DNA from: a virus
Taxonomy: Duplodnaviria > Heunggongvirae > Uroviricota > Caudoviricetes
Length of the DNA: 64,000 nt
Strand: one strand, 5' to 3'
Virus record (IMG/VR): IMGVR_UViG_2687453424_000001
Shown: piece after piece, positions 17,364 to 60,275 of the stretch
Position numbering within the stretch: position 1 is the stretch's first letter
How the letters are laid out: each line of letters opens with the position of its first letter
The notes under the pieces: model-generated
What the model saw: only the letters and a program-made list of their open reading frames with translations
Told to the model about the DNA's origin: nothing
Database searches by the model: none
Position numbers and translations under genes: made by a program

Positions 17364-19953
17364 ATGGGCGTTGATTATTACAAGATTCTTCAGGTCGACC
17401 GGAATGCAAAAGATGAAGATTTGAAGAAAGCTTATCGGAAACTGGCCATGAAGTGGCATCCCGATAAAAACCCTAAGAACAAGAAAGATGCCGAAGCCAA
17501 ATTTAAGCAAATCTCCGAGGCTTACGATGTAAATTTTATTTTATTTGATTTTTTTGGTTATTTATTTATTTTTTTAATGGAATTTTCAATTAATTGTAGG
17601 TTTTGAGTGATCCCCAAAAGCGTGCGGTTTATGATCAATACGGAGAAGAAGGATTAAAGGGCCACATGCCACCCCCGGGGGCGGGCGGGTTTCCCGGAGG
17701 GGCGGACGGGGGTCCGACGATGTTCCGGTTCAATACTCGGAGCCCCGATGATATTTTCTCGGAAATTTTCGGGTTTTCGAGTCCGTTTGGGGGGATGGGT
17801 GATATGGGCGGGTCACGTGCTGGGGCGTCGGGTTTCCCCAGGGGCATGTTTGGGGAAGATATTTTCGCCTCGTTGAGGGGCGGAGCTGGAGAGGGTTCTA
17901 CGACTATGCCCCGAAAAGGACCCGCTATTGAACGAACATTGCCTTGCAGCTTGGAGGATTTGTATAAAGGGACTACCAAGAAGATGAAGATTTCTAGAGA
18001 TGTTTCTGATGGTATCGGGTAATCTTTTATTTCTATTTTTTTCTTTTTAAAGTTAATTTAGTTGGGTAATGCTTAGTTTTGCTATTTTGATTTTACTAGT
18101 ATGTGGATAAGTGATTTTCAGCTGGATTTATCTGTAGATCTAAGTTCAATTTATTAGCTTTGAGCATAACTTATAATTTAATGTAGAACATCAATAATTG
18201 AATCCTGAAAGGTTTTTTAGGCATAAGACAAGGAATAATTAACATTTTCAAGCAGCGGATATCTTAGCTTGAGTCGCAAAAGATGTTTACAGAGGTTGCC
18301 GAGTTTGACTTTTTGCGAAAAATGGTACTTGTTAGGATAATATGATTCTATTATTTAAAATGATTGGTTGTTTCCCCAAGTGATGACAAAGTTGCATGAC
18401 AGTTAGATTTGATCCAAAAAGTTGTGATTGTTGAGATCTTATGAGCATTATTTTACATTGTTATTCAATTGAGTCTTTTCTGATCTGCGGTCTTAATGTT
18501 CGAGACAGATTTAGATTGGTCAGCATATTTCAGCAAACAAGCAACGCTATTAGAATAATAAACCAGAAATAAACCGGTCGTGTAAGTGTATATTTTGGAG
18601 AATCATAGCTAGGGGCATTTAACTCTGTTAGGCAAACATAATTTAAATTTTATTAGATTTTCTTATCTGGAAAGGAATCTTATGGGGATTTCTTTGCATG
18701 AAGGTATACTCTTTCTCTGTGTTTGATCCTTCTTCCTTATATAGCAAAAAGACTTTCTTTTTCATTCCTCTTTCTCTTTTTGTTTTTCGGTTTTGGTTCA
18801 CTGTCTTTTTAACTTATGGTCAGTTTTTTAATTTCCTGAGTAATAGAGATACTTCTATGGTATTATATAATCTGTTTTGATTATATGATTATTTCCTATT
18901 ATCCTCAACAAAGCTTCTTTCACAATTTGTTCTTTTTCCATAAAGATTAGATTGATCATGGAGATTATTTGTCCATCTATGTGTTTGTGACCAACTTTGG
19001 GAATTTCTTGATGCTTACTCAAGATTCATTTTTTAAGTTCTCTTTTTTTGTATTTTGCTTTATGCCAAATTTGTAAATTTGGCTTCAGCTGATGATAATT
19101 GCTGCATGTTGAAAATAATAGTGGCTTTGTGACGGTATGTCCCTGTCATCAGTTAGCCTTGCTGTTTTGCTTCAGTTTAACCAGATTATCCACAAGCTGG
19201 TAGTTTTTAGATCAGCACACTAGTTGGAATTTCCTAGAACACAACTTTATATCAGCTTAATTTACCATGTGAATTCAACTTGTCGAGTCCGAAATTTGCA
19301 TTCTACTGAATGCTTATATGCTTAAAACTGTGAGTGCTTACAATTTTGCACTTTGTATATTTATTAAGACTTACGTAGTTAAATTATGGCGAGAGAAGTT
19401 CCTAGTTCTAGCAATAATATGTAGTTTTGGGAAATCTTAAAACCGTGATCTTTTACAGTTAACTTTTTTATTCCTTTATTTTCAAGAAAATACTTTTTTA
19501 TCCCTTTACAGGAGACCTACTACAGTGGAGGAAATTCTTACTATTGAGATTAAGCCAGGGTGGAAAAAAGGTACAAAAATCACTTTTCCAGAGAAGGGAA
19601 ACGAGCAACGAGGGGTTATTCCTTCTGACCTTGTCTTCATCATTGACGAGAAGCCTCACGGTGTGTTCAAGAGGGATGGCAATGATCTTGTTGTTACTCA
19701 GAAGATATCTCTAGTGGAAGCTCTTACTGGTTATACAGCACAGCTGACAACGCTTGATGGACGGAATCTGACGGTCCCTATTAACAACGTCATTAGTCCA
19801 ACCTATGAAGAGGTTGTTAAAGGTGAGGGAATGCCCATTCCCAAGGAACCTTCTAAGAAAGGAAATTTGAGAATTAAATTCAGCATCAAGTTCCCTACCA
19901 AGCTTACGACAGAGCAGAAAACTGGCCTGAAGCGGTTAATGTCATCTCCCTAG
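17364..19953 (+). CDS. DnaJ/Hsp40 co-chaperone, class B (type II, DNAJB1-like), 3 exons, about 342 aa
   Basis: Exons 17364-17528, 17600-18018, 19512-19953, all anchored to ORF-track frames. J domain with [17 protein letters not shown] (HPD motif), GC-rich Gly/Phe-rich linker ([12 protein letters not shown]...FGGMGDMGG), no Cys-rich zinc-finger region, conserved C-terminal substrate-binding domain ([24 protein letters not shown]...). Confidence 0.93.
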
Positions 19954-26150: not shown

Positions 26151-28304
26151 CTTTTGCCACAACTTCCATGTACAATTGATTTTGTAAAACAAAGCAATAA
26201 AACCATATCATGGACACAAAATTGATTGCTTTCAGGGTTGTCAAATTAAACACTTGGAAGGAGCATCTAACTTAATCTTGTAAATCATGAAAGCAATCAA
26301 GAACTTCCTATCACAAGTATTCATATCTAAATAAATTTGTACCATCCTAGCAATGCTGCTTGTGTAATAAAAAGAGGGTGATCTGATATATTGTTACTGG
26401 CTTTTCATGTAAGCTTGTAAAGCATCAATTCTATTGCAATTTTCTATAAAAAAAACAAAGAAAAATTGTATTGCTAAGAACAAAATAAATTTATTAGATA
26501 TATGACGTAAAATTACAAATTCATTGAATGAGTCTGTTTCAATTTTAAGATTTGTCCTGGGATTCTTTTTGTCCTCCTTGAGCTTGAAACTTCCTTGGTT
26601 TTATTCTCTTCATCGGGTCAAGCAGACACAAACAAACAACAAACATGAGCACAGCCACCAGCCATGCCAATGGCCATCGTGGCATATTGTCCATTGGGCT
26701 TAAATGATAGGTGACCACTGACTTGGGTAAAACTGCAAGCGTGGAATGGGCTGATTTTGGTCCATAGCTGGTGTCGTGACAACACAGTCAAAAGTTTGAG
26801 GCTAAGCAAGCAATGTGTAACACATGCCTGCCGACGGGTAGTTACATTGTATCGGCCTTCTGTTCATAGCCAAACCAAACCACATTAATTCAACATTGTA
26901 GTGCTGTAAGTTAAAAGCAAATTAAGACAAGAAGCTGCCAGTTAGGCATGGTCTTAGATATTATCGGGATAACGGGAGATCAGTGAATGAACCCTAACAT
27001 TTTCCAAATAATGGAAGAGATATATAAGCACGTGCCCTTTTCCATAAACATACTAAAGGAAGCAGTGAATGAATTTGTCTAACAGGGTACTAGCATAGAC
27101 AAGTAAGTCTACAACACTAGGTATAAATTAAAGTATTCTGACTGATCCTCCTCACAACATAGCTAAAGTTTGCCTTTTATGAAATTAATATACCGTCGTG
27201 CTATATATATATATATAGTACCTTATTATAATAAACTTTACTGCAGTACCCATTCCGCAGTGATCAGTGAATGCTTTGACAAATCGATTTATTAATAGCT
27301 ATTTATGTGTATCTCTGCCTACCACAACCACATAAAGAAAAATAAAGAGACAACTTGGGGGAAAGTTTGAAAGCTTTTAAAAAACGTGCCATGGTGGTAC
27401 TTGGAAATGGGGTGTTAAATGTGGAACGAGTCAAAAAGGCCAAAACATAAAGGACTTGTAACGTAATGGACATGACATTAATACAAAGAGGAAAATTTGA
27501 GTAAGGCAAAAGGACTACTGTAAAGGGCAAAAGCGAGAGAGAAGGAACAGCAACGTATATAGTACTTTTCTGTTTATGCTTTGCCCATCCTAGCAAGATC
27601 GAAAGTGGAGACGACCTGGGTGACCTTTTAGATATATGCGGTGTGTTTGCTGACTCATGGAAAATGTTTCAAAGCATAAGAGCCACAATTATTTTTGTAC
27701 CCTCTGCTATAGCACTGGTCAAAGCTGAGACCATCGAAAGAGTTAGGTTTTAATTCGTACGGATTCGAAATTGATTTACGTATGTTTACGTCTAAATTCG
27801 TTATTTTTTAGTATAAATATATTATATATACATATTTATCATGAAATCAAATATCGGTATATATCTCTTGATTGTATTGAATTTTATCCACGTGGAGCTG
27901 TCGTTAACGTTTTAAAATATCCAAGGCAACTAATCTGGATGGTATTTAATTTGTTTAAAAATTGACATCCCCAATTTCGAAGAAAGAGCGATGTTGTCGC
28001 CTGTTGTACTGCCCCAATGGTGGTTCACATTGTCATTATTATATGCTAATGGACATCTTGGGTTGGTTGTTTTCGATATACTACTTTAAGCAAAAGCTGT
28101 ATATAGCCCATGTGATGGAAATTCATATAAAGAAAATTAATAGGTGTGAGGGAAAACATGGAACTCATTGCAGCTTCATTTTCCAACTAAATTCAAACCA
28201 AACCAAACCACAATTATTCAGTCCAAATTATCAAGTGGGGGCAGCATTTTTCTTGGTATCTTCTCGTGGCAATTCATTGTCTGCCTAACTTGAAAAATCT
28301 GAAA

Positions 28305-28327
28305 AAGAAAGAAAGAAAGAAAGAAAG
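28305..28327. repeat. (GAAA)n microsatellite
   Basis: About 5-6 GAAA units; coordinates approximate. Confidence 0.8.
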
Positions 28328-29216
28328 ACGTTTAGCTGTCTTTATTCAATCCAAATCTTAAACCCAGGAAGAAGCAGCTAGCTTACTAGCTTTATGCATG
28401 TGCAAGAGACTGCATGCTTCTTGAGTGTACTCGTATACTAAAGGAATAGAGAGAAAGAATTGTAGGGTGAGAAGTTGGTGAAATGTTCTAATCATATACG
28501 TAATTATCAATTTGTTTCTTAGATTAGTCCAGGCAACTACTCCAATTTTACATGCCAAGGCGATTTTTCTTTAAAAAAGACAATGGGATATTTATCTATA
28601 TTATGATTCTAGAAAGGAAAGAATTTATTACAAGAACTATAAATTAAGGAATAGATCTCATATAAACAAAGATATTATAAAAATGTAAAGAAATTCTTTC
28701 TGTTCATCTGCGATTGAGATTGTCTCTTTAAAAATGTATTTGAGAGATAAGTCAAAAATTCTGTTATTGTAACTTTTAATATGATTAGGGATTTTGCAAA
28801 CATTTTTAATATAAAGAAATAAGAGGTGACAATTATCTCACTAGGTTGGTCATTTGATAGATTCTATTAATTTATAACACAAGTGAGCAAAGGCAGCCAT
28901 CACAGATTGGTTTTCTGCTACCAAAATTGACACAGACAACAAGTTTTATCCACATCCACTTTATCACTTAGGCTCCTTTTGACTCAGGCAACAATTTTGA
29001 ATAAAAGGGCATCAAGAATTTATAATATGATATGACACAAATTAATATTGCTTCTTGAAATGCTTGCATACAGTAATCTTTTCACATGATCATGTAAAGC
29101 TTCAAATTAGCTGATTATAGTACTTTCAGAAGCTCTATATTTAGGTTGGAGAGGCTTGGGAGTATTATTTAAATGTAAGCGATTGGTACACATCACACAA
29201 GTACTATGTATGGAGA

Positions 29217-31128
29217 CTATCTATTGGATTTCAAGGATTCAACTTGCGCTTTGCCACATGGACCCTTGGTCCTGATGTAAAGTCTGTACTCATCAAACGT
29301 CATGGGATTATACAGAGCCGGCCGGTCCTTACTCACTAGCTCCTTGGCTGGTTCGATGAGTAAATCACTCTTTGGGTTGTAGAAGAAAGCTAGGGAGACT
29401 CGATCTTTTGCTGAATTCACGATTACCCTGTGTTCAACACTCTTGTAAATTCCATTGCTCAGCACCTGAACGTGTTTCATGAAACCTATGATCAGCTTTC
29501 TTTTGCTCTTGAAACATGGGGCAATAATAATACAGAAGAAATTGGAGTGACAATCCTAGAGAGAAAGATCAGAAACCTGAAGCTGGTCTCCAACGTTGAC
29601 AATGAAAGCATTAGGAACAGGCTTCACGGTGATCCACTTGCCATTCTTACAAACTTGGAGTCCAGCTACGTCGTGATCAGGCAGGAGAATGGTCATGGCA
29701 CCAGGGTCTGAGTGTGAGGAAAGACCTAGGGTAAGGTCAGGCTGAGGACACTTTGGATAGAAGTTGACCCTTAAACAGGCACCGATGTCTTCTCCACCGA
29801 AGGCTTTCTGCAGGTAATCTTCTGGCAGTCCAAGATTTGTTGACATCGCCTTCAGCAGCCTTCCACACAGTTTTACAACTTCAGCACCATATTCTGCTAC
29901 CAGTTCCCTGCATCCAGATGTGAACAGCTAATGATTAGTAAATTCTGCTACCAGTTCCCTGCATGTTTAAGGTTAAAGCTCTCTCCATTCGTACATGTTA
30001 CATAAAACAGTAGAAAACAAATACCCTTTTCATTTTCAACAAAGTTGGGTCTACTATTTTGGTCGGGGATTAATATTTTAACCTGAATTTCTTTCTTTTT
30101 CCTTCCTTTTTCTGTTGTGAATTGTAAGCAAACTTGAAAACGACCAACACTCCTTTGCATGTGAAGTTGCAACTAATTAACTTTTGGTAAGGTTAGGAAA
30201 GATTCGAGGGTCAAAACCATCTCCATTGGATCGATGCAGGCCGTGCGATTTGGATATGGATTTGCTTTTTAATCATTCCATTTTGACTTCATGAAATCGT
30301 TTCCCTACCCTTAGAATTTTTGTCTTCTTTAATTATTGCCTTCAAAAGAGGAGATCAAAGTTGATCAATTAACCTCAGTCAATATGGGGGTGTTTATATC
30401 GTGAGACATCAGTTGCAACCCGGGCCAAATCTAAGATTATTGGTCAGTTGACCGAATCCCACTGTCCTAGTTTTTGTTCTCTTGGCAGATGTAAGAAAAG
30501 AGAAAGAATCTCTTTTCGTGCAGAGAGACAGGAACAAAAAGAAAACATCAACGTAAATAAAACATCATGGTATCACGTTTTGTAAAAAGATAAAATAAAC
30601 AATGAGGCAGGCAGGGGGTGCAGACCTGCAAGATGACGGTTGTGCAGGCCACTTGCTTTGATTCCTCGACGAAACCGGCATGAAGTGAAGAAAAAAGTAA
30701 TCGCTCCAATCCAGAATCGCTCCTTTCTCTACTCCCAAGCGACTGCCGTACCCTTCATAGGTACTTGGCTCGTTGGCATACCCTTGCTTCACTTCAAGCG
30801 GCAGGCTGAAGAATCGACGCCACACCTCTCGGATGCGCCTCATCAGCTCGTGGCTAACCCCATGGTTCACCGCCTGGAAGAAACCCCAGTCCCGGCACGT
30901 GCTGGAGATGCATCTCAAGGTCTCCTCCCGCAGGGCTAGGTCTTTCCCGAACAGGTTCTGGAGATCAACGACAGGAATGTCAACATGTTCTTCGATTTTG
31001 GAACATGTTTTCAGGCCAGGCCTGTCGGTTAGCGGCTTGATGTATCGCTCTGGAATGGCACGTATCCCACTGTCAGACAGAGACTGAACTCGAACCACCG
31101 GCTCAGGCCAACTCTGGAGACAATTCAT
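29217..31128 (-). CDS. 2-oxoglutarate/Fe(II)-dependent dioxygenase (DOXC class; jasmonate-induced-oxygenase / At5g05600-like), 3 exons, about 360 aa
   Basis: Exons on the minus strand 30626-31128, 29577-29907, 29217-29465, all ORF-anchored. N-terminus MNCLQSWPEPVVRVQSLSDSGIRAIPERYIKP; DIOX_N region (WGFFQAVNHGV); 2OG-FeII_Oxy fold with the HxD...H iron triad and RxS (SSHSDPGAMTILLPDHDVAGLQV...YKSVEHRVIVNSAKDRVSLAFFYNP). Confidence 0.92.
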
Positions 31129-31577: not shown

Positions 31578-31601
31578 AGAGAGAGAGAGAGAGAGAGAGA
31601 G
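31578..31601. repeat. (GA)n microsatellite about 450 bp upstream of the dioxygenase start codon
   Basis: About 12 GA units; a second shorter (GA)7 lies near 31814-31827. Coordinates approximate. Confidence 0.85.
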
Positions 31602-33539: not shown

Positions 33540-36500
33540 NNNNNNNNNNNNNNNNNNNNNNNNNNNNNNNNNNNNNNNNNNNNNNNNNNNNNNNNNNNNN
33601 NNNNNNNNNNNNNNNNNNNNNNNNNNNNNNNNNNNNNNNNNNNNNNNNNNNNNNNNNNNNNNNNNNNNNNNNNNNNNNNNNNNNNNNNNNNNNNNNNNNN
33701 NNNNNNNNNNNNNNNNNNNNNNNNNNNNNNNNNNNNNNNNNNNNNNNNNNNNNNNNNNNNNNNNNNNNNNNNNNNNNNNNNNNNNNNNNNNNNNNNNNNN
33801 NNNNNNNNNNNNNNNNNNNNNNNNNNNNNNNNNNNNNNNNNNNNNNNNNNNNNNNNNNNNNNNNNNNNNNNNNNNNNNNNNNNNNNNNNNNNNNNNNNNN
33901 NNNNNNNNNNNNNNNNNNNNNNNNNNNNNNNNNNNNNNNNNNNNNNNNNNNNNNNNNNNNNNNNNNNNNNNNNNNNNNNNNNNNNNNNNNNNNNNNNNNN
34001 NNNNNNNNNNNNNNNNNNNNNNNNNNNNNNNNNNNNNNNNNNNNNNNNNNNNNNNNNNNNNNNNNNNNNNNNNNNNNNNNNNNNNNNNNNNNNNNNNNNN
34101 NNNNNNNNNNNNNNNNNNNNNNNNNNNNNNNNNNNNNNNNNNNNNNNNNNNNNNNNNNNNNNNNNNNNNNNNNNNNNNNNNNNNNNNNNNNNNNNNNNNN
34201 NNNNNNNNNNNNNNNNNNNNNNNNNNNNNNNNNNNNNNNNNNNNNNNNNNNNNNNNNNNNNNNNNNNNNNNNNNNNNNNNNNNNNNNNNNNNNNNNNNNN
34301 NNNNNNNNNNNNNNNNNNNNNNNNNNNNNNNNNNNNNNNNNNNNNNNNNNNNNNNNNNNNNNNNNNNNNNNNNNNNNNNNNNNNNNNNNNNNNNNNNNNN
34401 NNNNNNNNNNNNNNNNNNNNNNNNNNNNNNNNNNNNNNNNNNNNNNNNNNNNNNNNNNNNNNNNNNNNNNNNNNNNNNNNNNNNNNNNNNNNNNNNNNNN
34501 NNNNNNNNNNNNNNNNNNNNNNNNNNNNNNNNNNNNNNNNNNNNNNNNNNNNNNNNNNNNNNNNNNNNNNNNNNNNNNNNNNNNNNNNNNNNNNNNNNNN
34601 NNNNNNNNNNNNNNNNNNNNNNNNNNNNNNNNNNNNNNNNNNNNNNNNNNNNNNNNNNNNNNNNNNNNNNNNNNNNNNNNNNNNNNNNNNNNNNNNNNNN
34701 NNNNNNNNNNNNNNNNNNNNNNNNNNNNNNNNNNNNNNNNNNNNNNNNNNNNNNNNNNNNNNNNNNNNNNNNNNNNNNNNNNNNNNNNNNNNNNNNNNNN
34801 NNNNNNNNNNNNNNNNNNNNNNNNNNNNNNNNNNNNNNNNNNNNNNNNNNNNNNNNNNNNNNNNNNNNNNNNNNNNNNNNNNNNNNNNNNNNNNNNNNNN
34901 NNNNNNNNNNNNNNNNNNNNNNNNNNNNNNNNNNNNNNNNNNNNNNNNNNNNNNNNNNNNNNNNNNNNNNNNNNNNNNNNNNNNNNNNNNNNNNNNNNNN
35001 NNNNNNNNNNNNNNNNNNNNNNNNNNNNNNNNNNNNNNNNNNNNNNNNNNNNNNNNNNNNNNNNNNNNNNNNNNNNNNNNNNNNNNNNNNNNNNNNNNNN
35101 NNNNNNNNNNNNNNNNNNNNNNNNNNNNNNNNNNNNNNNNNNNNNNNNNNNNNNNNNNNNNNNNNNNNNNNNNNNNNNNNNNNNNNNNNNNNNNNNNNNN
35201 NNNNNNNNNNNNNNNNNNNNNNNNNNNNNNNNNNNNNNNNNNNNNNNNNNNNNNNNNNNNNNNNNNNNNNNNNNNNNNNNNNNNNNNNNNNNNNNNNNNN
35301 NNNNNNNNNNNNNNNNNNNNNNNNNNNNNNNNNNNNNNNNNNNNNNNNNNNNNNNNNNNNNNNNNNNNNNNNNNNNNNNNNNNNNNNNNNNNNNNNNNNN
35401 NNNNNNNNNNNNNNNNNNNNNNNNNNNNNNNNNNNNNNNNNNNNNNNNNNNNNNNNNNNNNNNNNNNNNNNNNNNNNNNNNNNNNNNNNNNNNNNNNNNN
35501 NNNNNNNNNNNNNNNNNNNNNNNNNNNNNNNNNNNNNNNNNNNNNNNNNNNNNNNNNNNNNNNNNNNNNNNNNNNNNNNNNNNNNNNNNNNNNNNNNNNN
35601 NNNNNNNNNNNNNNNNNNNNNNNNNNNNNNNNNNNNNNNNNNNNNNNNNNNNNNNNNNNNNNNNNNNNNNNNNNNNNNNNNNNNNNNNNNNNNNNNNNNN
35701 NNNNNNNNNNNNNNNNNNNNNNNNNNNNNNNNNNNNNNNNNNNNNNNNNNNNNNNNNNNNNNNNNNNNNNNNNNNNNNNNNNNNNNNNNNNNNNNNNNNN
35801 NNNNNNNNNNNNNNNNNNNNNNNNNNNNNNNNNNNNNNNNNNNNNNNNNNNNNNNNNNNNNNNNNNNNNNNNNNNNNNNNNNNNNNNNNNNNNNNNNNNN
35901 NNNNNNNNNNNNNNNNNNNNNNNNNNNNNNNNNNNNNNNNNNNNNNNNNNNNNNNNNNNNNNNNNNNNNNNNNNNNNNNNNNNNNNNNNNNNNNNNNNNN
36001 NNNNNNNNNNNNNNNNNNNNNNNNNNNNNNNNNNNNNNNNNNNNNNNNNNNNNNNNNNNNNNNNNNNNNNNNNNNNNNNNNNNNNNNNNNNNNNNNNNNN
36101 NNNNNNNNNNNNNNNNNNNNNNNNNNNNNNNNNNNNNNNNNNNNNNNNNNNNNNNNNNNNNNNNNNNNNNNNNNNNNNNNNNNNNNNNNNNNNNNNNNNN
36201 NNNNNNNNNNNNNNNNNNNNNNNNNNNNNNNNNNNNNNNNNNNNNNNNNNNNNNNNNNNNNNNNNNNNNNNNNNNNNNNNNNNNNNNNNNNNNNNNNNNN
36301 NNNNNNNNNNNNNNNNNNNNNNNNNNNNNNNNNNNNNNNNNNNNNNNNNNNNNNNNNNNNNNNNNNNNNNNNNNNNNNNNNNNNNNNNNNNNNNNNNNNN
36401 NNNNNNNNNNNNNNNNNNNNNNNNNNNNNNNNNNNNNNNNNNNNNNNNNNNNNNNNNNNNNNNNNNNNNNNNNNNNNNNNNNNNNNNNNNNNNNNNNNNN

Positions 36501-37908
36501 NNNNNNNNNNNNNNNNNNNNNNNNNNNNNNNNNNNNNNNNNNNNNNNNNNNNNNNNNNNNNNNNNNNNNNNNNNNNNNNNNNNNNNNNNNNNNNNNNNNN
36601 NNNNNNNNNNNNNNNNNNNNNNNNNNNNNNNNNNNNNNNNNNNNNNNNNNNNNNNNNNNNNNNNNNNNNNNNNNNNNNNNNNNNNNNNNNNNNNNNNNNN
36701 NNNNNNNNNNNNNNNNNNNNNNNNNNNNNNNNNNNNNNNNNNNNNNNNNNNNNNNNNNNNNNNNNNNNNNNNNNNNNNNNNNNNNNNNNNNNNNNNNNNN
36801 NNNNNNNNNNNNNNNNNNNNNNNNNNNNNNNNNNNNNNNNNNNNNNNNNNNNNNNNNNNNNNNNNNNNNNNNNNNNNNNNNNNNNNNNNNNNNNNNNNNN
36901 NNNNNNNNNNNNNNNNNNNNNNNNNNNNNNNNNNNNNNNNNNNNNNNNNNNNNNNNNNNNNNNNNNNNNNNNNNNNNNNNNNNNNNNNNNNNNNNNNNNN
37001 NNNNNNNNNNNNNNNNNNNNNNNNNNNNNNNNNNNNNNNNNNNNNNNNNNNNNNNNNNNNNNNNNNNNNNNNNNNNNNNNNNNNNNNNNNNNNNNNNNNN
37101 NNNNNNNNNNNNNNNNNNNNNNNNNNNNNNNNNNNNNNNNNNNNNNNNNNNNNNNNNNNNNNNNNNNNNNNNNNNNNNNNNNNNNNNNNNNNNNNNNNNN
37201 NNNNNNNNNNNNNNNNNNNNNNNNNNNNNNNNNNNNNNNNNNNNNNNNNNNNNNNNNNNNNNNNNNNNNNNNNNNNNNNNNNNNNNNNNNNNNNNNNNNN
37301 NNNNNNNNNNNNNNNNNNNNNNNNNNNNNNNNNNNNNNNNNNNNNNNNNNNNNNNNNNNNNNNNNNNNNNNNNNNNNNNNNNNNNNNNNNNNNNNNNNNN
37401 NNNNNNNNNNNNNNNNNNNNNNNNNNNNNNNNNNNNNNNNNNNNNNNNNNNNNNNNNNNNNNNNNNNNNNNNNNNNNNNNNNNNNNNNNNNNNNNNNNNN
37501 NNNNNNNNNNNNNNNNNNNNNNNNNNNNNNNNNNNNNNNNNNNNNNNNNNNNNNNNNNNNNNNNNNNNNNNNNNNNNNNNNNNNNNNNNNNNNNNNNNNN
37601 NNNNNNNNNNNNNNNNNNNNNNNNNNNNNNNNNNNNNNNNNNNNNNNNNNNNNNNNNNNNNNNNNNNNNNNNNNNNNNNNNNNNNNNNNNNNNNNNNNNN
37701 NNNNNNNNNNNNNNNNNNNNNNNNNNNNNNNNNNNNNNNNNNNNNNNNNNNNNNNNNNNNNNNNNNNNNNNNNNNNNNNNNNNNNNNNNNNNNNNNNNNN
37801 NNNNNNNNNNNNNNNNNNNNNNNNNNNNNNNNNNNNNNNNNNNNNNNNNNNNNNNNNNNNNNNNNNNNNNNNNNNNNNNNNNNNNNNNNNNNNNNNNNNN
37901 NNNNNNNN
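33540..37908. other. N-run, 4369 bp
   Basis: Continuous n; boundaries confirmed from ORF-track X positions. Confidence 0.99.
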
Positions 37909-38670: not shown

Positions 38671-41600
38671 NNNNNNNNNNNNNNNNNNNNNNNNNNNNNN
38701 NNNNNNNNNNNNNNNNNNNNNNNNNNNNNNNNNNNNNNNNNNNNNNNNNNNNNNNNNNNNNNNNNNNNNNNNNNNNNNNNNNNNNNNNNNNNNNNNNNNN
38801 NNNNNNNNNNNNNNNNNNNNNNNNNNNNNNNNNNNNNNNNNNNNNNNNNNNNNNNNNNNNNNNNNNNNNNNNNNNNNNNNNNNNNNNNNNNNNNNNNNNN
38901 NNNNNNNNNNNNNNNNNNNNNNNNNNNNNNNNNNNNNNNNNNNNNNNNNNNNNNNNNNNNNNNNNNNNNNNNNNNNNNNNNNNNNNNNNNNNNNNNNNNN
39001 NNNNNNNNNNNNNNNNNNNNNNNNNNNNNNNNNNNNNNNNNNNNNNNNNNNNNNNNNNNNNNNNNNNNNNNNNNNNNNNNNNNNNNNNNNNNNNNNNNNN
39101 NNNNNNNNNNNNNNNNNNNNNNNNNNNNNNNNNNNNNNNNNNNNNNNNNNNNNNNNNNNNNNNNNNNNNNNNNNNNNNNNNNNNNNNNNNNNNNNNNNNN
39201 NNNNNNNNNNNNNNNNNNNNNNNNNNNNNNNNNNNNNNNNNNNNNNNNNNNNNNNNNNNNNNNNNNNNNNNNNNNNNNNNNNNNNNNNNNNNNNNNNNNN
39301 NNNNNNNNNNNNNNNNNNNNNNNNNNNNNNNNNNNNNNNNNNNNNNNNNNNNNNNNNNNNNNNNNNNNNNNNNNNNNNNNNNNNNNNNNNNNNNNNNNNN
39401 NNNNNNNNNNNNNNNNNNNNNNNNNNNNNNNNNNNNNNNNNNNNNNNNNNNNNNNNNNNNNNNNNNNNNNNNNNNNNNNNNNNNNNNNNNNNNNNNNNNN
39501 NNNNNNNNNNNNNNNNNNNNNNNNNNNNNNNNNNNNNNNNNNNNNNNNNNNNNNNNNNNNNNNNNNNNNNNNNNNNNNNNNNNNNNNNNNNNNNNNNNNN
39601 NNNNNNNNNNNNNNNNNNNNNNNNNNNNNNNNNNNNNNNNNNNNNNNNNNNNNNNNNNNNNNNNNNNNNNNNNNNNNNNNNNNNNNNNNNNNNNNNNNNN
39701 NNNNNNNNNNNNNNNNNNNNNNNNNNNNNNNNNNNNNNNNNNNNNNNNNNNNNNNNNNNNNNNNNNNNNNNNNNNNNNNNNNNNNNNNNNNNNNNNNNNN
39801 NNNNNNNNNNNNNNNNNNNNNNNNNNNNNNNNNNNNNNNNNNNNNNNNNNNNNNNNNNNNNNNNNNNNNNNNNNNNNNNNNNNNNNNNNNNNNNNNNNNN
39901 NNNNNNNNNNNNNNNNNNNNNNNNNNNNNNNNNNNNNNNNNNNNNNNNNNNNNNNNNNNNNNNNNNNNNNNNNNNNNNNNNNNNNNNNNNNNNNNNNNNN
40001 NNNNNNNNNNNNNNNNNNNNNNNNNNNNNNNNNNNNNNNNNNNNNNNNNNNNNNNNNNNNNNNNNNNNNNNNNNNNNNNNNNNNNNNNNNNNNNNNNNNN
40101 NNNNNNNNNNNNNNNNNNNNNNNNNNNNNNNNNNNNNNNNNNNNNNNNNNNNNNNNNNNNNNNNNNNNNNNNNNNNNNNNNNNNNNNNNNNNNNNNNNNN
40201 NNNNNNNNNNNNNNNNNNNNNNNNNNNNNNNNNNNNNNNNNNNNNNNNNNNNNNNNNNNNNNNNNNNNNNNNNNNNNNNNNNNNNNNNNNNNNNNNNNNN
40301 NNNNNNNNNNNNNNNNNNNNNNNNNNNNNNNNNNNNNNNNNNNNNNNNNNNNNNNNNNNNNNNNNNNNNNNNNNNNNNNNNNNNNNNNNNNNNNNNNNNN
40401 NNNNNNNNNNNNNNNNNNNNNNNNNNNNNNNNNNNNNNNNNNNNNNNNNNNNNNNNNNNNNNNNNNNNNNNNNNNNNNNNNNNNNNNNNNNNNNNNNNNN
40501 NNNNNNNNNNNNNNNNNNNNNNNNNNNNNNNNNNNNNNNNNNNNNNNNNNNNNNNNNNNNNNNNNNNNNNNNNNNNNNNNNNNNNNNNNNNNNNNNNNNN
40601 NNNNNNNNNNNNNNNNNNNNNNNNNNNNNNNNNNNNNNNNNNNNNNNNNNNNNNNNNNNNNNNNNNNNNNNNNNNNNNNNNNNNNNNNNNNNNNNNNNNN
40701 NNNNNNNNNNNNNNNNNNNNNNNNNNNNNNNNNNNNNNNNNNNNNNNNNNNNNNNNNNNNNNNNNNNNNNNNNNNNNNNNNNNNNNNNNNNNNNNNNNNN
40801 NNNNNNNNNNNNNNNNNNNNNNNNNNNNNNNNNNNNNNNNNNNNNNNNNNNNNNNNNNNNNNNNNNNNNNNNNNNNNNNNNNNNNNNNNNNNNNNNNNNN
40901 NNNNNNNNNNNNNNNNNNNNNNNNNNNNNNNNNNNNNNNNNNNNNNNNNNNNNNNNNNNNNNNNNNNNNNNNNNNNNNNNNNNNNNNNNNNNNNNNNNNN
41001 NNNNNNNNNNNNNNNNNNNNNNNNNNNNNNNNNNNNNNNNNNNNNNNNNNNNNNNNNNNNNNNNNNNNNNNNNNNNNNNNNNNNNNNNNNNNNNNNNNNN
41101 NNNNNNNNNNNNNNNNNNNNNNNNNNNNNNNNNNNNNNNNNNNNNNNNNNNNNNNNNNNNNNNNNNNNNNNNNNNNNNNNNNNNNNNNNNNNNNNNNNNN
41201 NNNNNNNNNNNNNNNNNNNNNNNNNNNNNNNNNNNNNNNNNNNNNNNNNNNNNNNNNNNNNNNNNNNNNNNNNNNNNNNNNNNNNNNNNNNNNNNNNNNN
41301 NNNNNNNNNNNNNNNNNNNNNNNNNNNNNNNNNNNNNNNNNNNNNNNNNNNNNNNNNNNNNNNNNNNNNNNNNNNNNNNNNNNNNNNNNNNNNNNNNNNN
41401 NNNNNNNNNNNNNNNNNNNNNNNNNNNNNNNNNNNNNNNNNNNNNNNNNNNNNNNNNNNNNNNNNNNNNNNNNNNNNNNNNNNNNNNNNNNNNNNNNNNN
41501 NNNNNNNNNNNNNNNNNNNNNNNNNNNNNNNNNNNNNNNNNNNNNNNNNNNNNNNNNNNNNNNNNNNNNNNNNNNNNNNNNNNNNNNNNNNNNNNNNNNN

Positions 41601-42170
41601 NNNNNNNNNNNNNNNNNNNNNNNNNNNNNNNNNNNNNNNNNNNNNNNNNNNNNNNNNNNNNNNNNNNNNNNNNNNNNNNNNNNNNNNNNNNNNNNNNNNN
41701 NNNNNNNNNNNNNNNNNNNNNNNNNNNNNNNNNNNNNNNNNNNNNNNNNNNNNNNNNNNNNNNNNNNNNNNNNNNNNNNNNNNNNNNNNNNNNNNNNNNN
41801 NNNNNNNNNNNNNNNNNNNNNNNNNNNNNNNNNNNNNNNNNNNNNNNNNNNNNNNNNNNNNNNNNNNNNNNNNNNNNNNNNNNNNNNNNNNNNNNNNNNN
41901 NNNNNNNNNNNNNNNNNNNNNNNNNNNNNNNNNNNNNNNNNNNNNNNNNNNNNNNNNNNNNNNNNNNNNNNNNNNNNNNNNNNNNNNNNNNNNNNNNNNN
42001 NNNNNNNNNNNNNNNNNNNNNNNNNNNNNNNNNNNNNNNNNNNNNNNNNNNNNNNNNNNNNNNNNNNNNNNNNNNNNNNNNNNNNNNNNNNNNNNNNNNN
42101 NNNNNNNNNNNNNNNNNNNNNNNNNNNNNNNNNNNNNNNNNNNNNNNNNNNNNNNNNNNNNNNNNNNNNN
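38671..42170. other. N-run, 3500 bp, bracketed by the inverted repeat arms
   Basis: Continuous n. Confidence 0.99.
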
Positions 42171-45460: not shown

Positions 45461-48400
45461 NNNNNNNNNNNNNNNNNNNNNNNNNNNNNNNNNNNNNNNN
45501 NNNNNNNNNNNNNNNNNNNNNNNNNNNNNNNNNNNNNNNNNNNNNNNNNNNNNNNNNNNNNNNNNNNNNNNNNNNNNNNNNNNNNNNNNNNNNNNNNNNN
45601 NNNNNNNNNNNNNNNNNNNNNNNNNNNNNNNNNNNNNNNNNNNNNNNNNNNNNNNNNNNNNNNNNNNNNNNNNNNNNNNNNNNNNNNNNNNNNNNNNNNN
45701 NNNNNNNNNNNNNNNNNNNNNNNNNNNNNNNNNNNNNNNNNNNNNNNNNNNNNNNNNNNNNNNNNNNNNNNNNNNNNNNNNNNNNNNNNNNNNNNNNNNN
45801 NNNNNNNNNNNNNNNNNNNNNNNNNNNNNNNNNNNNNNNNNNNNNNNNNNNNNNNNNNNNNNNNNNNNNNNNNNNNNNNNNNNNNNNNNNNNNNNNNNNN
45901 NNNNNNNNNNNNNNNNNNNNNNNNNNNNNNNNNNNNNNNNNNNNNNNNNNNNNNNNNNNNNNNNNNNNNNNNNNNNNNNNNNNNNNNNNNNNNNNNNNNN
46001 NNNNNNNNNNNNNNNNNNNNNNNNNNNNNNNNNNNNNNNNNNNNNNNNNNNNNNNNNNNNNNNNNNNNNNNNNNNNNNNNNNNNNNNNNNNNNNNNNNNN
46101 NNNNNNNNNNNNNNNNNNNNNNNNNNNNNNNNNNNNNNNNNNNNNNNNNNNNNNNNNNNNNNNNNNNNNNNNNNNNNNNNNNNNNNNNNNNNNNNNNNNN
46201 NNNNNNNNNNNNNNNNNNNNNNNNNNNNNNNNNNNNNNNNNNNNNNNNNNNNNNNNNNNNNNNNNNNNNNNNNNNNNNNNNNNNNNNNNNNNNNNNNNNN
46301 NNNNNNNNNNNNNNNNNNNNNNNNNNNNNNNNNNNNNNNNNNNNNNNNNNNNNNNNNNNNNNNNNNNNNNNNNNNNNNNNNNNNNNNNNNNNNNNNNNNN
46401 NNNNNNNNNNNNNNNNNNNNNNNNNNNNNNNNNNNNNNNNNNNNNNNNNNNNNNNNNNNNNNNNNNNNNNNNNNNNNNNNNNNNNNNNNNNNNNNNNNNN
46501 NNNNNNNNNNNNNNNNNNNNNNNNNNNNNNNNNNNNNNNNNNNNNNNNNNNNNNNNNNNNNNNNNNNNNNNNNNNNNNNNNNNNNNNNNNNNNNNNNNNN
46601 NNNNNNNNNNNNNNNNNNNNNNNNNNNNNNNNNNNNNNNNNNNNNNNNNNNNNNNNNNNNNNNNNNNNNNNNNNNNNNNNNNNNNNNNNNNNNNNNNNNN
46701 NNNNNNNNNNNNNNNNNNNNNNNNNNNNNNNNNNNNNNNNNNNNNNNNNNNNNNNNNNNNNNNNNNNNNNNNNNNNNNNNNNNNNNNNNNNNNNNNNNNN
46801 NNNNNNNNNNNNNNNNNNNNNNNNNNNNNNNNNNNNNNNNNNNNNNNNNNNNNNNNNNNNNNNNNNNNNNNNNNNNNNNNNNNNNNNNNNNNNNNNNNNN
46901 NNNNNNNNNNNNNNNNNNNNNNNNNNNNNNNNNNNNNNNNNNNNNNNNNNNNNNNNNNNNNNNNNNNNNNNNNNNNNNNNNNNNNNNNNNNNNNNNNNNN
47001 NNNNNNNNNNNNNNNNNNNNNNNNNNNNNNNNNNNNNNNNNNNNNNNNNNNNNNNNNNNNNNNNNNNNNNNNNNNNNNNNNNNNNNNNNNNNNNNNNNNN
47101 NNNNNNNNNNNNNNNNNNNNNNNNNNNNNNNNNNNNNNNNNNNNNNNNNNNNNNNNNNNNNNNNNNNNNNNNNNNNNNNNNNNNNNNNNNNNNNNNNNNN
47201 NNNNNNNNNNNNNNNNNNNNNNNNNNNNNNNNNNNNNNNNNNNNNNNNNNNNNNNNNNNNNNNNNNNNNNNNNNNNNNNNNNNNNNNNNNNNNNNNNNNN
47301 NNNNNNNNNNNNNNNNNNNNNNNNNNNNNNNNNNNNNNNNNNNNNNNNNNNNNNNNNNNNNNNNNNNNNNNNNNNNNNNNNNNNNNNNNNNNNNNNNNNN
47401 NNNNNNNNNNNNNNNNNNNNNNNNNNNNNNNNNNNNNNNNNNNNNNNNNNNNNNNNNNNNNNNNNNNNNNNNNNNNNNNNNNNNNNNNNNNNNNNNNNNN
47501 NNNNNNNNNNNNNNNNNNNNNNNNNNNNNNNNNNNNNNNNNNNNNNNNNNNNNNNNNNNNNNNNNNNNNNNNNNNNNNNNNNNNNNNNNNNNNNNNNNNN
47601 NNNNNNNNNNNNNNNNNNNNNNNNNNNNNNNNNNNNNNNNNNNNNNNNNNNNNNNNNNNNNNNNNNNNNNNNNNNNNNNNNNNNNNNNNNNNNNNNNNNN
47701 NNNNNNNNNNNNNNNNNNNNNNNNNNNNNNNNNNNNNNNNNNNNNNNNNNNNNNNNNNNNNNNNNNNNNNNNNNNNNNNNNNNNNNNNNNNNNNNNNNNN
47801 NNNNNNNNNNNNNNNNNNNNNNNNNNNNNNNNNNNNNNNNNNNNNNNNNNNNNNNNNNNNNNNNNNNNNNNNNNNNNNNNNNNNNNNNNNNNNNNNNNNN
47901 NNNNNNNNNNNNNNNNNNNNNNNNNNNNNNNNNNNNNNNNNNNNNNNNNNNNNNNNNNNNNNNNNNNNNNNNNNNNNNNNNNNNNNNNNNNNNNNNNNNN
48001 NNNNNNNNNNNNNNNNNNNNNNNNNNNNNNNNNNNNNNNNNNNNNNNNNNNNNNNNNNNNNNNNNNNNNNNNNNNNNNNNNNNNNNNNNNNNNNNNNNNN
48101 NNNNNNNNNNNNNNNNNNNNNNNNNNNNNNNNNNNNNNNNNNNNNNNNNNNNNNNNNNNNNNNNNNNNNNNNNNNNNNNNNNNNNNNNNNNNNNNNNNNN
48201 NNNNNNNNNNNNNNNNNNNNNNNNNNNNNNNNNNNNNNNNNNNNNNNNNNNNNNNNNNNNNNNNNNNNNNNNNNNNNNNNNNNNNNNNNNNNNNNNNNNN
48301 NNNNNNNNNNNNNNNNNNNNNNNNNNNNNNNNNNNNNNNNNNNNNNNNNNNNNNNNNNNNNNNNNNNNNNNNNNNNNNNNNNNNNNNNNNNNNNNNNNNN

Positions 48401-50264
48401 NNNNNNNNNNNNNNNNNNNNNNNNNNNNNNNNNNNNNNNNNNNNNNNNNNNNNNNNNNNNNNNNNNNNNNNNNNNNNNNNNNNNNNNNNNNNNNNNNNNN
48501 NNNNNNNNNNNNNNNNNNNNNNNNNNNNNNNNNNNNNNNNNNNNNNNNNNNNNNNNNNNNNNNNNNNNNNNNNNNNNNNNNNNNNNNNNNNNNNNNNNNN
48601 NNNNNNNNNNNNNNNNNNNNNNNNNNNNNNNNNNNNNNNNNNNNNNNNNNNNNNNNNNNNNNNNNNNNNNNNNNNNNNNNNNNNNNNNNNNNNNNNNNNN
48701 NNNNNNNNNNNNNNNNNNNNNNNNNNNNNNNNNNNNNNNNNNNNNNNNNNNNNNNNNNNNNNNNNNNNNNNNNNNNNNNNNNNNNNNNNNNNNNNNNNNN
48801 NNNNNNNNNNNNNNNNNNNNNNNNNNNNNNNNNNNNNNNNNNNNNNNNNNNNNNNNNNNNNNNNNNNNNNNNNNNNNNNNNNNNNNNNNNNNNNNNNNNN
48901 NNNNNNNNNNNNNNNNNNNNNNNNNNNNNNNNNNNNNNNNNNNNNNNNNNNNNNNNNNNNNNNNNNNNNNNNNNNNNNNNNNNNNNNNNNNNNNNNNNNN
49001 NNNNNNNNNNNNNNNNNNNNNNNNNNNNNNNNNNNNNNNNNNNNNNNNNNNNNNNNNNNNNNNNNNNNNNNNNNNNNNNNNNNNNNNNNNNNNNNNNNNN
49101 NNNNNNNNNNNNNNNNNNNNNNNNNNNNNNNNNNNNNNNNNNNNNNNNNNNNNNNNNNNNNNNNNNNNNNNNNNNNNNNNNNNNNNNNNNNNNNNNNNNN
49201 NNNNNNNNNNNNNNNNNNNNNNNNNNNNNNNNNNNNNNNNNNNNNNNNNNNNNNNNNNNNNNNNNNNNNNNNNNNNNNNNNNNNNNNNNNNNNNNNNNNN
49301 NNNNNNNNNNNNNNNNNNNNNNNNNNNNNNNNNNNNNNNNNNNNNNNNNNNNNNNNNNNNNNNNNNNNNNNNNNNNNNNNNNNNNNNNNNNNNNNNNNNN
49401 NNNNNNNNNNNNNNNNNNNNNNNNNNNNNNNNNNNNNNNNNNNNNNNNNNNNNNNNNNNNNNNNNNNNNNNNNNNNNNNNNNNNNNNNNNNNNNNNNNNN
49501 NNNNNNNNNNNNNNNNNNNNNNNNNNNNNNNNNNNNNNNNNNNNNNNNNNNNNNNNNNNNNNNNNNNNNNNNNNNNNNNNNNNNNNNNNNNNNNNNNNNN
49601 NNNNNNNNNNNNNNNNNNNNNNNNNNNNNNNNNNNNNNNNNNNNNNNNNNNNNNNNNNNNNNNNNNNNNNNNNNNNNNNNNNNNNNNNNNNNNNNNNNNN
49701 NNNNNNNNNNNNNNNNNNNNNNNNNNNNNNNNNNNNNNNNNNNNNNNNNNNNNNNNNNNNNNNNNNNNNNNNNNNNNNNNNNNNNNNNNNNNNNNNNNNN
49801 NNNNNNNNNNNNNNNNNNNNNNNNNNNNNNNNNNNNNNNNNNNNNNNNNNNNNNNNNNNNNNNNNNNNNNNNNNNNNNNNNNNNNNNNNNNNNNNNNNNN
49901 NNNNNNNNNNNNNNNNNNNNNNNNNNNNNNNNNNNNNNNNNNNNNNNNNNNNNNNNNNNNNNNNNNNNNNNNNNNNNNNNNNNNNNNNNNNNNNNNNNNN
50001 NNNNNNNNNNNNNNNNNNNNNNNNNNNNNNNNNNNNNNNNNNNNNNNNNNNNNNNNNNNNNNNNNNNNNNNNNNNNNNNNNNNNNNNNNNNNNNNNNNNN
50101 NNNNNNNNNNNNNNNNNNNNNNNNNNNNNNNNNNNNNNNNNNNNNNNNNNNNNNNNNNNNNNNNNNNNNNNNNNNNNNNNNNNNNNNNNNNNNNNNNNNN
50201 NNNNNNNNNNNNNNNNNNNNNNNNNNNNNNNNNNNNNNNNNNNNNNNNNNNNNNNNNNNNNNNN
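45461..50264. other. N-run, 4804 bp
   Basis: Continuous n; boundaries confirmed from ORF-track X positions. Confidence 0.99.

Positions 50265-55627: not shown

Positions 55628-60275
<4,648 letters not shown>

What the first reader, a model, noticed from the sequence alone, without database searches (positions are those of the whole stretch)
29890..29965. Local tandem duplication (spacing about 49 bp) of the intron-1/exon-2 acceptor region of the dioxygenase gene
The string aattctgctaccagttccctgcat occurs twice about 49 bp apart; the first copy spans the 3' splice site and the first 11 nt of exon 2. On the coding (minus) strand the second copy supplies a second ...atgcag|ggaactggtagcagaat acceptor upstream of the real one. 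Using it would insert about 49 nt containing in-frame stop codons, so it is a potential cryptic or regulated unproductive splice site.
Basis: seen in the sequence. Interest (0 to 1): 0.4.

Follow-up and report, generated by a model that had tools for sequence, protein, structure and literature searches.

The report
Duplicated splice acceptor in cacao intron
A 23-base copy of the intron-1/exon-2 boundary of a cacao dioxygenase gene sits 51 bases upstream of the real boundary; it looks like an old DNA-repair scar shared with the sister genus Herrania, and the only assembled mRNA found uses the original splice site, so it is a small and probably silent curiosity.

Summary
The repeat is real. ATGCAGGGAACTGGTAGCAGAAT (minus strand) occurs twice, exactly, at 29891-29913 and 29942-29964. 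Spacing is 51 bp, not 49, and the copy holds 6 intron nt plus 17 exon nt, not 11. None of 100 shuffles gave two matches, and it is the only local exact repeat of 16 nt or more in the window.

The window is Theobroma cacao. The gene (minus strand, 3 exons, 360 aa) is a JOX-like 2-oxoglutarate dioxygenase, 100% identical to EOY07187.1.

Both copies are identical in five cacao sources. Herrania has both, with 3 substitutions in the upstream copy. Craigia, Pterospermum, Corchorus, Gossypium and two metagenome-derived Malvaceae contigs have one copy.

It is not a true tandem duplication. The 28-nt spacer and the upstream ATGCAG are ancestral intron sequence. Only the 17 exon-derived nt are new, and they replace unrelated intron sequence. 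This fits a microhomology-primed templated insertion, the scar typical of polymerase-theta end joining.

Using the upstream acceptor would add 51 nt with an in-frame TAG. The one spliced mRNA contig found and all annotations use the downstream acceptor, and a TACTAAT branch-point candidate lies between the two acceptors. Regulated unproductive splicing is untested and unsupported.

Interest is low.

The parts
29891..29913 (-). Downstream (original) copy: the last 6 nt of intron 1 (atgcag, 29913-29908) plus the first 17 nt of exon 2 (GGAACTGGTAGCAGAAT, 29907-29891). This is the authentic 3' splice site.
   Evidence: Exact repeat. Exon 2 start at 29907 gives a 360-aa protein 100% identical to EOY07187.1. 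Spliced mRNA contig L004 uses this junction. Both flanks are conserved in the single-copy outgroups.
29942..29958 (-). The 17-nt inserted copy of the exon-2 start (GGAACTGGTAGCAGAAT) inside intron 1. This is the part that is new in Theobroma and Herrania.
   Evidence: Present only in cacao (5 sources) and in Herrania, where it has 3 substitutions. Craigia, L009 and L011 have unrelated sequence (ccgRcMtgagtaa...) at this position.
29959..29964 (-). Upstream ATGCAG: a pre-existing intronic hexamer that supplies the decoy AG. It is inferred to be the 6-nt microhomology that primed the templated copy.
   Evidence: Craigia and L009 have ...ccttaa(a/g)cagatacATGCAG and L011 has aaacATGaAG in the homologous context, followed by unrelated sequence.
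29914..29941 (-). The 28-nt spacer TTACTAATCATTAGCTGTTCACATCTGG: the ancestral 3' end of intron 1. It contains the branch-point candidate TACTAAT (29940-29934, branch A at 29935) and the in-frame TAG (29930-29928) that would terminate the alternative isoform.
   Evidence: Orthologous to Craigia tcataataaATTAGCTGTTCA-ATCTGG, which directly precedes the single Craigia acceptor. CURAY-type CTAAT lies 28 nt upstream of the downstream acceptor. Stop codon position.
30626..31128 (-). Exon 1 of the JOX-like 2-oxoglutarate/Fe(II) dioxygenase gene (from the ATG to ...TCTTGCAG|gt, ending two bases into a codon).
29908..30625 (-). Intron 1 (718 nt, GT...AG). It would be 667 nt if the upstream acceptor were used.
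   Evidence: spliced contig L004.
29577..29907 (-). Exon 2.
29217..29465 (-). Exon 3, including the stop codon.

Best explanation
The feature is a mutational scar in intron 1, not a functional element.

Origin (inferred). In the common ancestor of Theobroma and Herrania, a break or replication stall occurred just 3' of a pre-existing intronic ATGCAG. That end paired with the identical ATGCAG at the true acceptor further downstream. A polymerase copied the next 17 nt, which are the start of exon 2. The nascent strand then released and rejoined about 28 nt upstream of the true acceptor, and some intervening intron sequence was lost. This is a deletion with a templated insertion, the classic signature of polymerase-theta-mediated end joining or an equivalent microhomology-mediated template switch.

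Consequence. The result is a second, identical -6 to +17 acceptor context 51 nt upstream of the real one.

Splicing. It is shown that the downstream acceptor is used. It is inferred that this is because the best branch-point candidate (TACTAAT, branch A 28 nt from the real AG) lies between the two AGs, so the upstream AG is 5' of it. The upstream AG is also preceded by a purine-rich, U-poor stretch.

Any use of the upstream AG would add 51 nt with an in-frame TAG more than 50 nt upstream of the exon2-exon3 junction. Such a transcript would be a nonsense-mediated-decay substrate encoding a 177-aa truncated protein. The copy is therefore most likely a near-silent decoy that drifts neutrally.
For: - Exact 23-nt repeat, far beyond chance.
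- The gene model and junction are confirmed by 100% identity to EOY07187.1 and by spliced mRNA contig L004, which uses the downstream acceptor.
- The duplication is present in Matina, Criollo, two more cacao assemblies and a Logan contig, all identical. It is also present in Herrania.
- There is a single copy in Craigia, Corchorus, Pterospermum, Gossypium, L009 and L011.
- Outgroup alignments show three things: the spacer equals the ancestral intron 3' end; the upstream ATGCAG is ancestral in Craigia and L009 (ATGaAG in L011) and is followed there by unrelated ccgRcMtgagtaa...; and only the 17 nt are new.
- The only match to the 24-nt search string in the whole window, allowing up to 3 mismatches, is the exon-2 start 28 nt away.
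- In Arabidopsis, templated insertions copied from flanking sequence, primed on microhomology and accompanied by deletions, are described as a hallmark of polymerase-theta end joining (PMC10923293, read).
- Branch-point and U-content comparison: the downstream acceptor has CTAAT at -28 and U = 0.37 over -33..-4. The upstream acceptor has only TTAAC at -15 or TTTAT at -45, U = 0.23, and a gaatggagagagc run.
- Identity of the two cacao copies needs no special force. Theobroma-Herrania intron 1 divergence is 4.9%, so fewer than 1 substitution is expected in 17 nt.
Against: - The repair mechanism is inferred from a footprint at least about 18 My old and cannot be observed.
- The ancestral sequence at the 3' junction is unknown, and the amount deleted is uncertain because the outgroups differ (about 15 to 57 nt).
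- Corchorus, Pterospermum and Gossypium lack the whole region between ttaa(acat) and the acceptor-proximal sequence, so the polarity of some indels is ambiguous.
- No read-level RNA data were available, so low-level or condition-specific use of the upstream acceptor is not excluded.
- The branch point is a consensus match, not a mapped one.
- Herrania's 3 clustered substitutions in the 17 nt are somewhat more than expected (P about 0.04). This could hint at an error-prone original copy followed by later homogenisation in Theobroma.
Confidence: 0.6

Rival explanations
1. Regulated unproductive splicing. The upstream acceptor is a genuine alternative 3' splice site, and its use (adding 51 nt, a premature stop and nonsense-mediated decay) tunes the level of this jasmonate-catabolism enzyme in Theobroma and Herrania.
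For: - The -6..+17 acceptor context is identical to the real one.
- The stop lies well over 50 nt upstream of the exon2-exon3 junction.
- The AG, the spacer and the TAG are retained in Herrania after about 18 My.
- A yUnAy motif (TTAAC) lies 15 nt upstream of the upstream AG.
Against: - The only spliced contig and all annotations use the downstream site.
- No alternative-isoform product is among the 7 members of the 90% protein cluster.
- The best branch-point candidate lies downstream of the upstream AG, and the upstream polypyrimidine context is poor.
- Retention in Herrania is what neutrality predicts at 4.9% intron divergence, and the exon-like part has taken 3 substitutions there.
- The feature is absent from all other Malvaceae orthologues examined.
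Confidence: 0.1
2. A true 51-bp tandem duplication of the acceptor region, whose non-identical 28 nt have since diverged beyond recognition.
For: The two copies are in direct orientation only 51 bp apart. The 16 nt preceding the upstream copy share AGCT.T with the spacer (7 of 16 by eye on the sequence).
Against: - Uniform decay cannot give 23 of 23 identity next to about 30% identity.
- The sequence 5' of the upstream copy is orthologous to outgroup intron (gagagcNttaa..aaacat) rather than to the spacer.
- The spacer is orthologous to the outgroup intron 3' end rather than to exon 2 nt 18-45.
- Tandem Repeats Finder reports no array.
Confidence: 0.07
3. An ancient duplication dating to the base of Malvaceae. 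The upstream copy has decayed in other lineages (Craigia ATGCAGccgacatgagtaataat) but has been re-homogenised by gene conversion in Theobroma.
For: - Craigia, L009 and L011 keep ATG(C/A)AG at the homologous place, and 7 of the next 17 nt match the exon start (counted by eye).
- Herrania's upstream copy has T at position 10, like the Craigia and Pterospermum exon (GTT), whereas the Theobroma and Herrania exon has A.
Against: - 7 of 17 is about the random expectation for AT-rich sequence.
- Conversion would need more homology than a hexamer.
- It requires more events than a single templated insertion.
- Corchorus, Pterospermum and Gossypium show no trace of a second copy.
Confidence: 0.05
4. A transposon footprint: the two 23-nt copies are a target-site duplication flanking a 28-nt remnant of an excised or degraded element.
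For: Direct repeats flank a short segment that contains a small palindrome, CTAATcATTAG.
Against: The 28-nt segment is ordinary orthologous intron sequence in Craigia and L009, not foreign DNA. To my knowledge, 23 bp is far longer than the target-site duplications of known plant transposon superfamilies.
Confidence: 0.02

Closest known systems
Templated insertions ('filler DNA', deletion-insertions) made by polymerase-theta-mediated end joining or microhomology-mediated template switching
   Same: A short insert (17 nt) is identical to sequence a few tens of bases away on the same strand. The junction with the template shares a microhomology (ATGCAG, 6 nt). Ancestral sequence was lost alongside. 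These are the features described for Arabidopsis repair scars in PMC10923293.
   Different: This is a fixed germline variant at least about 18 My old, inferred from phylogeny rather than from an induced break. The 6-nt microhomology is longer than the roughly 3-bp average reported for Arabidopsis. The enzyme involved cannot be determined.
Tandem duplication of splice-site-containing sequence (Rogers-type intron gain by AGGT duplication; intron sliding. Lehmann et al. 2010, PMC2891723; Hellsten et al. 2011, PMC3265369; Ma et al. 2016, PMC4974935)
   Same: A local duplication that includes splice-signal sequence, so the reading frame of the mature mRNA is preserved because one copy stays within the intron. 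Premature stops in the unspliced or alternatively spliced version make NMD relevant.
   Different: No new intron and no shift of intron position arise. The existing intron only contains an extra acceptor-like copy. The event is not a head-to-tail duplication.
Alternative 3' splice sites coupled to nonsense-mediated decay (unproductive splicing)
   Same: Two AG acceptors lie 51 nt apart. Use of the upstream one introduces a premature stop upstream of a later exon junction.
   Different: Use of the upstream site has not been observed; only the downstream junction is seen. There is no deep conservation.
Jasmonate-induced oxygenases / jasmonic acid oxidases (JOX/JAO, DOXC-class 2-oxoglutarate dioxygenases): the host gene
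   Same: DIOX_N and 2OG-FeII_Oxy domains. Many of the closest homologues (about 67-81% identity) are named jasmonate-induced oxygenase by their sources. The H-x-D...H and R-x-S motifs can be read in the protein sequence (HSD, EHRV, RVS).
   Different: The function of the cacao protein has not been tested. Source names vary: 'leucoanthocyanidin dioxygenase', 'ANS', 'SRG1-like'.

Membership tests
True tandem duplication | The whole repeat unit (here 51 bp) is present twice, head to tail | tested here: not met
   Only 23 of 51 nt are repeated. Tandem Repeats Finder finds no array at 29890-29965. The sequence before the upstream copy and the spacer each align to single-copy outgroup intron.
Templated insertion (polymerase-theta end-joining type deletion-insertion) | The inserted bases are identical to a nearby flanking sequence | tested here: met
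   The 17-nt insert is identical to exon 2 nt 1-17, which start 28 nt downstream of it. These two sites are the only matches in the 64-kb window to the 24-nt search string that contains it, allowing up to 3 mismatches.
Templated insertion (polymerase-theta end-joining type deletion-insertion) | Microhomology between the break end and the position where templated synthesis starts | tested here: met
   ATGCAG precedes both the insert and its template. The upstream ATGCAG pre-exists in Craigia and L009 (ATGaAG in L011) in homologous context.
Templated insertion (polymerase-theta end-joining type deletion-insertion) | Accompanying loss of original sequence at the junction | tested here: inconclusive
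   Outgroups carry about 15 to 57 nt of unrelated sequence (ccgRcMtgagtaa...) where cacao has the 17 nt. The length in the direct ancestor is unknown, and other outgroups have their own deletions.
Templated insertion (polymerase-theta end-joining type deletion-insertion) | Dependence on polymerase theta | not testable with these tools
   This is a historical germline event. A replication template switch would leave the same footprint.
Alternative 3' splice site with NMD (regulated unproductive splicing) | Both acceptors are used in transcripts | tested here: inconclusive
   Only the downstream junction is seen, in one spliced Logan contig (L004). The annotated models P0001, P0121 and P0122 also use it. 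No alternative-isoform product is in the protein cluster. No read-level data were available.
Alternative 3' splice site with NMD (regulated unproductive splicing) | The alternative isoform carries a premature stop more than 50 nt upstream of a downstream exon junction | tested here: met
   The TAG at 29930-29928 is about 350 nt upstream of the exon2-exon3 junction at 29577.
Alternative 3' splice site with NMD (regulated unproductive splicing) | Conservation beyond the neutral expectation | tested here: not met
   The feature is found only in Theobroma and Herrania. Retention is compatible with the 4.9% neutral intron divergence, and there are 3 substitutions in the Herrania copy. It is absent in 6 other Malvaceae sequences.
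Transposon target-site duplication | The repeats flank foreign (element-derived) DNA | tested here: not met
   The 28-nt spacer is orthologous to the intron 3' end of Craigia and L009.
2-oxoglutarate/Fe(II) dioxygenase, JOX-like (host gene) | DIOX_N and 2OG-FeII_Oxy domains with H-x-D...H iron ligands and R-x-S | tested here: met
   Pfam PF14226 (E = 2.6e-29) and PF03171 (E = 4.4e-37). HSD, EHRV and RVS can be read in the 360-aa translation.
2-oxoglutarate/Fe(II) dioxygenase, JOX-like (host gene) | Jasmonic acid 12-hydroxylase activity | not testable with these tools
   Only name transfer from homologues is available.

The most novel reading that the evidence does not exclude
The decoy acceptor is functional. 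Because it offers an identical acceptor upstream of the main branch point, it competes for the spliceosome under particular conditions, for example jasmonate or wound signalling or changed U2AF or SR-protein levels. That would divert part of the pre-mRNA to an NMD-targeted isoform, giving Theobroma and Herrania a lineage-specific post-transcriptional brake on jasmonate catabolism. It would be a splice-regulatory element created in one step by a DNA-repair scar.
Probability: 0.06. Interest if true: 0.45.

Novelty: new member of a known kind. Interest (0 to 1): 0.17.

Why it matters
The main value is as a clean worked example. A single repair event copied an acceptor-plus-exon fragment into an intron. 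The outgroups allow the microhomology, the template and the insert to be told apart, and the scar has stayed fixed for roughly 18 million years without disturbing the gene.

It illustrates how templated-insertion repair can create ready-made cryptic splice sites, which are raw material for alternative splicing, in plant genes. It is also a caution for gene prediction and RNA-seq alignment at this locus: short reads that span only the 23 identical bases could be placed at either copy.

It does not bear on any open question unless the upstream site proves to be used in a regulated way.

Tried and rejected
- Chance repeat: rejected.
- Assembly artefact: rejected. Five independent cacao sources and Herrania carry it.
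- True 51-bp tandem duplication: rejected by the outgroup alignments and Tandem Repeats Finder.
- Transposon footprint: rejected, because the spacer is orthologous intron.
- L010 looked at first like an alternatively spliced transcript because its reading frame is broken. It is collinear genomic or unspliced sequence.
- A scan of JGI metagenome contigs for the copy/spacer junction, with degenerate positions to catch relatives, found nothing.
- RNA structure: the 28-nt, 79% inverted repeat and a fold of 29740-30010(-) are no better than shuffles (z = +0.73). Rfam has no match anywhere in the window.
- A micro-exon or mini-intron reading (GGAACTG|GTAGCA as a donor) was rejected by inspection. 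It would add 7 nt, causing a frameshift, and would need a 44-nt intron.
- Lou et al. 1993, on position-dependent 3' splice-site choice in dicots, is not held in the library, so the splice-site-choice arguments rest on general knowledge and consensus matching.

Full report
**What is in the sequence**

On the minus strand, the 23-mer ATGCAGGGAACTGGTAGCAGAAT occurs twice without a mismatch, at + strand 29891-29913 and 29942-29964. Start-to-start spacing is 51 bp.

None of 100 dinucleotide-preserving shuffles of the window produced two matches. Among 43.3 kb of non-N sequence, this is the only complex exact direct repeat of 16 nt or more within 300 bp.
- The spacing is 51 bp, not about 49.
- The exon part is 17 nt, not 11.
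- The extra segment would be 51 nt.

**The gene**

The minus strand carries a three-exon gene:
- Exon 1: 31128-30626.
- Intron 1: 718 nt.
- Exon 2: 29907-29577.
- Intron 2: 111 nt.
- Exon 3: 29465-29217.

Its 360-aa product has DIOX_N and 2OG-FeII_Oxy domains. It is 100% identical over its full length to Theobroma cacao EOY07187.1. Many of its closest homologues are named jasmonate-induced oxygenase by their sources. The gene region of the window is identical to the Matina 1-6 assembly, CM001883.1.

Exon 1 ends ...TCT TGC AG, two bases into a codon, and exon 2 starts G GAA CTG GTA. The downstream copy therefore holds the authentic acceptor (atgcag|GGAACTGG...). A 1246-nt Logan contig from run ERR4077215 (L004) translates directly to the full protein, and both introns are removed in it. 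It shows the junction CATCTTGCAG|GGAACTGGTAGCAGAATATGG. Use of the downstream acceptor is thus shown by transcript-derived sequence.

**What the upstream copy would do**

Splicing to the upstream AG (exon start at 29958) adds 51 nt. The reading becomes R-E-L-V-A-E-F-T-N-H-stop, with the TAG at 29930-29928. That stop is about 350 nt upstream of the exon2-exon3 junction. By the usual 50-nt rule (general knowledge), such a transcript would be a nonsense-mediated-decay substrate.

**Distribution**

Both copies are identical in Matina, Criollo, two further cacao assemblies (GCA_036851095.1 and GCA_036851125.1) and an independent genomic or unspliced Logan contig from ERR315659.

Herrania umbratica, the sister genus, has the same arrangement and the same 28-nt spacer. 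Its upstream copy reads GGAACTGGCTGCGGAAT, three substitutions from the cacao form. PMC11152179 puts the Theobroma-Herrania split at about 18 Mya.

A single copy is found in these sequences:
- Craigia yunnanensis.
- Pterospermum kingtungense.
- Corchorus capsularis.
- Gossypium aridum.
- L009, a metagenome-derived contig that is 91.6% identical to Craigia and so Tilioideae-like.
- L011, a second metagenome-derived Malvaceae contig.

**Anatomy of the event**

Alignment of the intron 3' ends shows three things.

1. The 28-nt spacer is ancestral. Cacao ttactaatcATTAGCTGTTCAcATCTGG|atgcag corresponds to Craigia tcataataaATTAGCTGTTCA-ATCTGG|atgcag, which directly precedes the single Craigia acceptor. 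The downstream copy therefore sits in the original context on both sides.

2. The sequence 5' of the upstream copy is also ancestral, and it already ended in ATGCAG.
   - Cacao: gagagctttaaccttaaacATGCAG.
   - Craigia: agccttaaacagatacATGCAG.
   - L009: agccttaagcagatacATGCAG.
   - L011: gtgaaacATGaAG.
   - Corchorus: gagagcattaatttgaaacAT.

3. After that hexamer the outgroups continue with ccgRcMtgagtaa..., about 15 to 57 nt of AT-rich intron. This is unrelated to the 17 nt GGAACTGGTAGCAGAAT found in cacao (7 of 17 matches, about random).

So only the 17 exon-derived bases are new. They follow a pre-existing 6-nt microhomology with their template, and they replace other sequence. This is the footprint of a microhomology-primed templated insertion with deletion. 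A study of CRISPR-induced breaks in Arabidopsis (PMC10923293) describes the same combination as a hallmark of polymerase-theta-mediated end joining: 'filler' copied from flanking sequence, microhomology and an accompanying deletion. A replicative template switch would leave the same scar, and the enzyme cannot be established.

A true 51-bp tandem duplication is excluded by these alignments, and Tandem Repeats Finder reports nothing there. A transposon target-site duplication is excluded because the spacer is orthologous intron.

**Is anything maintaining the copy?**

Theobroma and Herrania intron 1 differ at 35 of 709 aligned sites, or 4.9%. Fewer than one change is therefore expected in a 17-nt stretch, and the perfect identity in cacao needs neither selection nor gene conversion.

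Herrania's three changes are clustered (intron positions 676, 677 and 680). They are slightly more than expected (P about 0.04, uncorrected). One of them restores the T seen in the Craigia and Pterospermum exon. An error-prone original copy or later conversion therefore cannot be excluded, but it is less parsimonious than a single event.

**Why the downstream site is probably chosen (inference)**

The spacer contains TACTAAT. This is a CURAY-type branch-point match whose branch A (29935) lies 28 nt upstream of the real exon start, and it is downstream of the decoy AG.

The decoy AG has only TTAAC at -15 or TTTAT at -45. It is preceded by the purine-rich run gaatggagagagc, and U content over -33..-4 is 0.23 against 0.37 for the real site. 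A branch formed at TACTAAT cannot use the upstream AG. This is consensus matching only; the branch point has not been mapped.

**Evidence on use of the decoy**

None was found. The protein cluster around EOY07187.1 has seven members. None is the 177-aa alternative product or the downstream ORF that such a transcript would yield.

This negative evidence is weak, because the collection holds only one spliced contig for the gene.

There is no RNA structure signal (z = +0.73) and no Rfam family in the window.

**Verdict**

The duplication is real, fixed in the cacao sources examined, and shared with Herrania. It is best explained as an old templated-insertion repair scar that happens to recreate the acceptor context 51 nt upstream of the real site.

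The suggestion of regulated unproductive splicing remains possible but has no support.

It is a new instance of known kinds of event: templated insertion and a cryptic duplicated acceptor. Interest is low. It would rise only if RNA-seq showed condition-dependent use of the upstream site.

Noticed in passing
window 29466-29576 (intron 2, minus strand); proteins P0123 (KAK6245072.1) and P0126: One cacao annotation (284 aa) and a Logan ORF end ...GDQLQVSDLSL*. They read through from exon 2 into intron 2, which is an intron-2-retention style model rather than the 360-aa product.
   Followed up: partly
L002 4215-4231 (Herrania upstream copy): Three clustered substitutions (TAGCA to CTGCG) lie within the 17-nt copy, against a 4.6% background divergence (P about 0.04). 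One of them matches the ancestral GTT codon state of the Craigia and Pterospermum exon. This might reflect an error-prone original copy or later conversion in Theobroma.
   Followed up: partly
L009 (ENA ERZ27237391) and L011 (ENA ERZ15610059): Two contigs from metagenome assemblies are clearly Malvaceae plant DNA carrying orthologues or paralogues of this gene. L009 is 91.6% identical to Craigia over 1.1 kb. They served as extra outgroups.
   Followed up: partly
window 59640-60164 (-); homologues P0010 and P0053: A calcium-dependent-protein-kinase-like ORF lies in the window. Two Hibiscus syriacus dioxygenase homologues carry the source name 'calcium-dependent protein kinase 13-like', which suggests merged or mis-named neighbouring gene models in that genome.
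   Followed up: no
window 17603-18022 and 19525-19953 (+): DnaJ-like exons. A DnaJ gene also neighbours the Herrania orthologue (L002 6738-7960), which indicates conserved gene order.
   Followed up: no
window 1222-5506, 33540-37908, 38671-42170, 45461-50264, 60276-64000: Five runs of N, each 3.5-4.8 kb (masked or unsequenced blocks), make up about a third of the window.
   Followed up: no
window about 31578-31600 and 28304-28328: A (CT)n microsatellite lies about 450 bp upstream of the start codon, and an (AAAG)6 repeat lies about 0.9 kb downstream of the stop codon.
   Followed up: no
window 29754-29781 and 29960-29987: A 28-nt, 79% complementary inverted repeat pairs exon 2 with the intron just upstream of the decoy copy. 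The predicted fold of the region is no more stable than shuffles (z = +0.73).
   Followed up: yes
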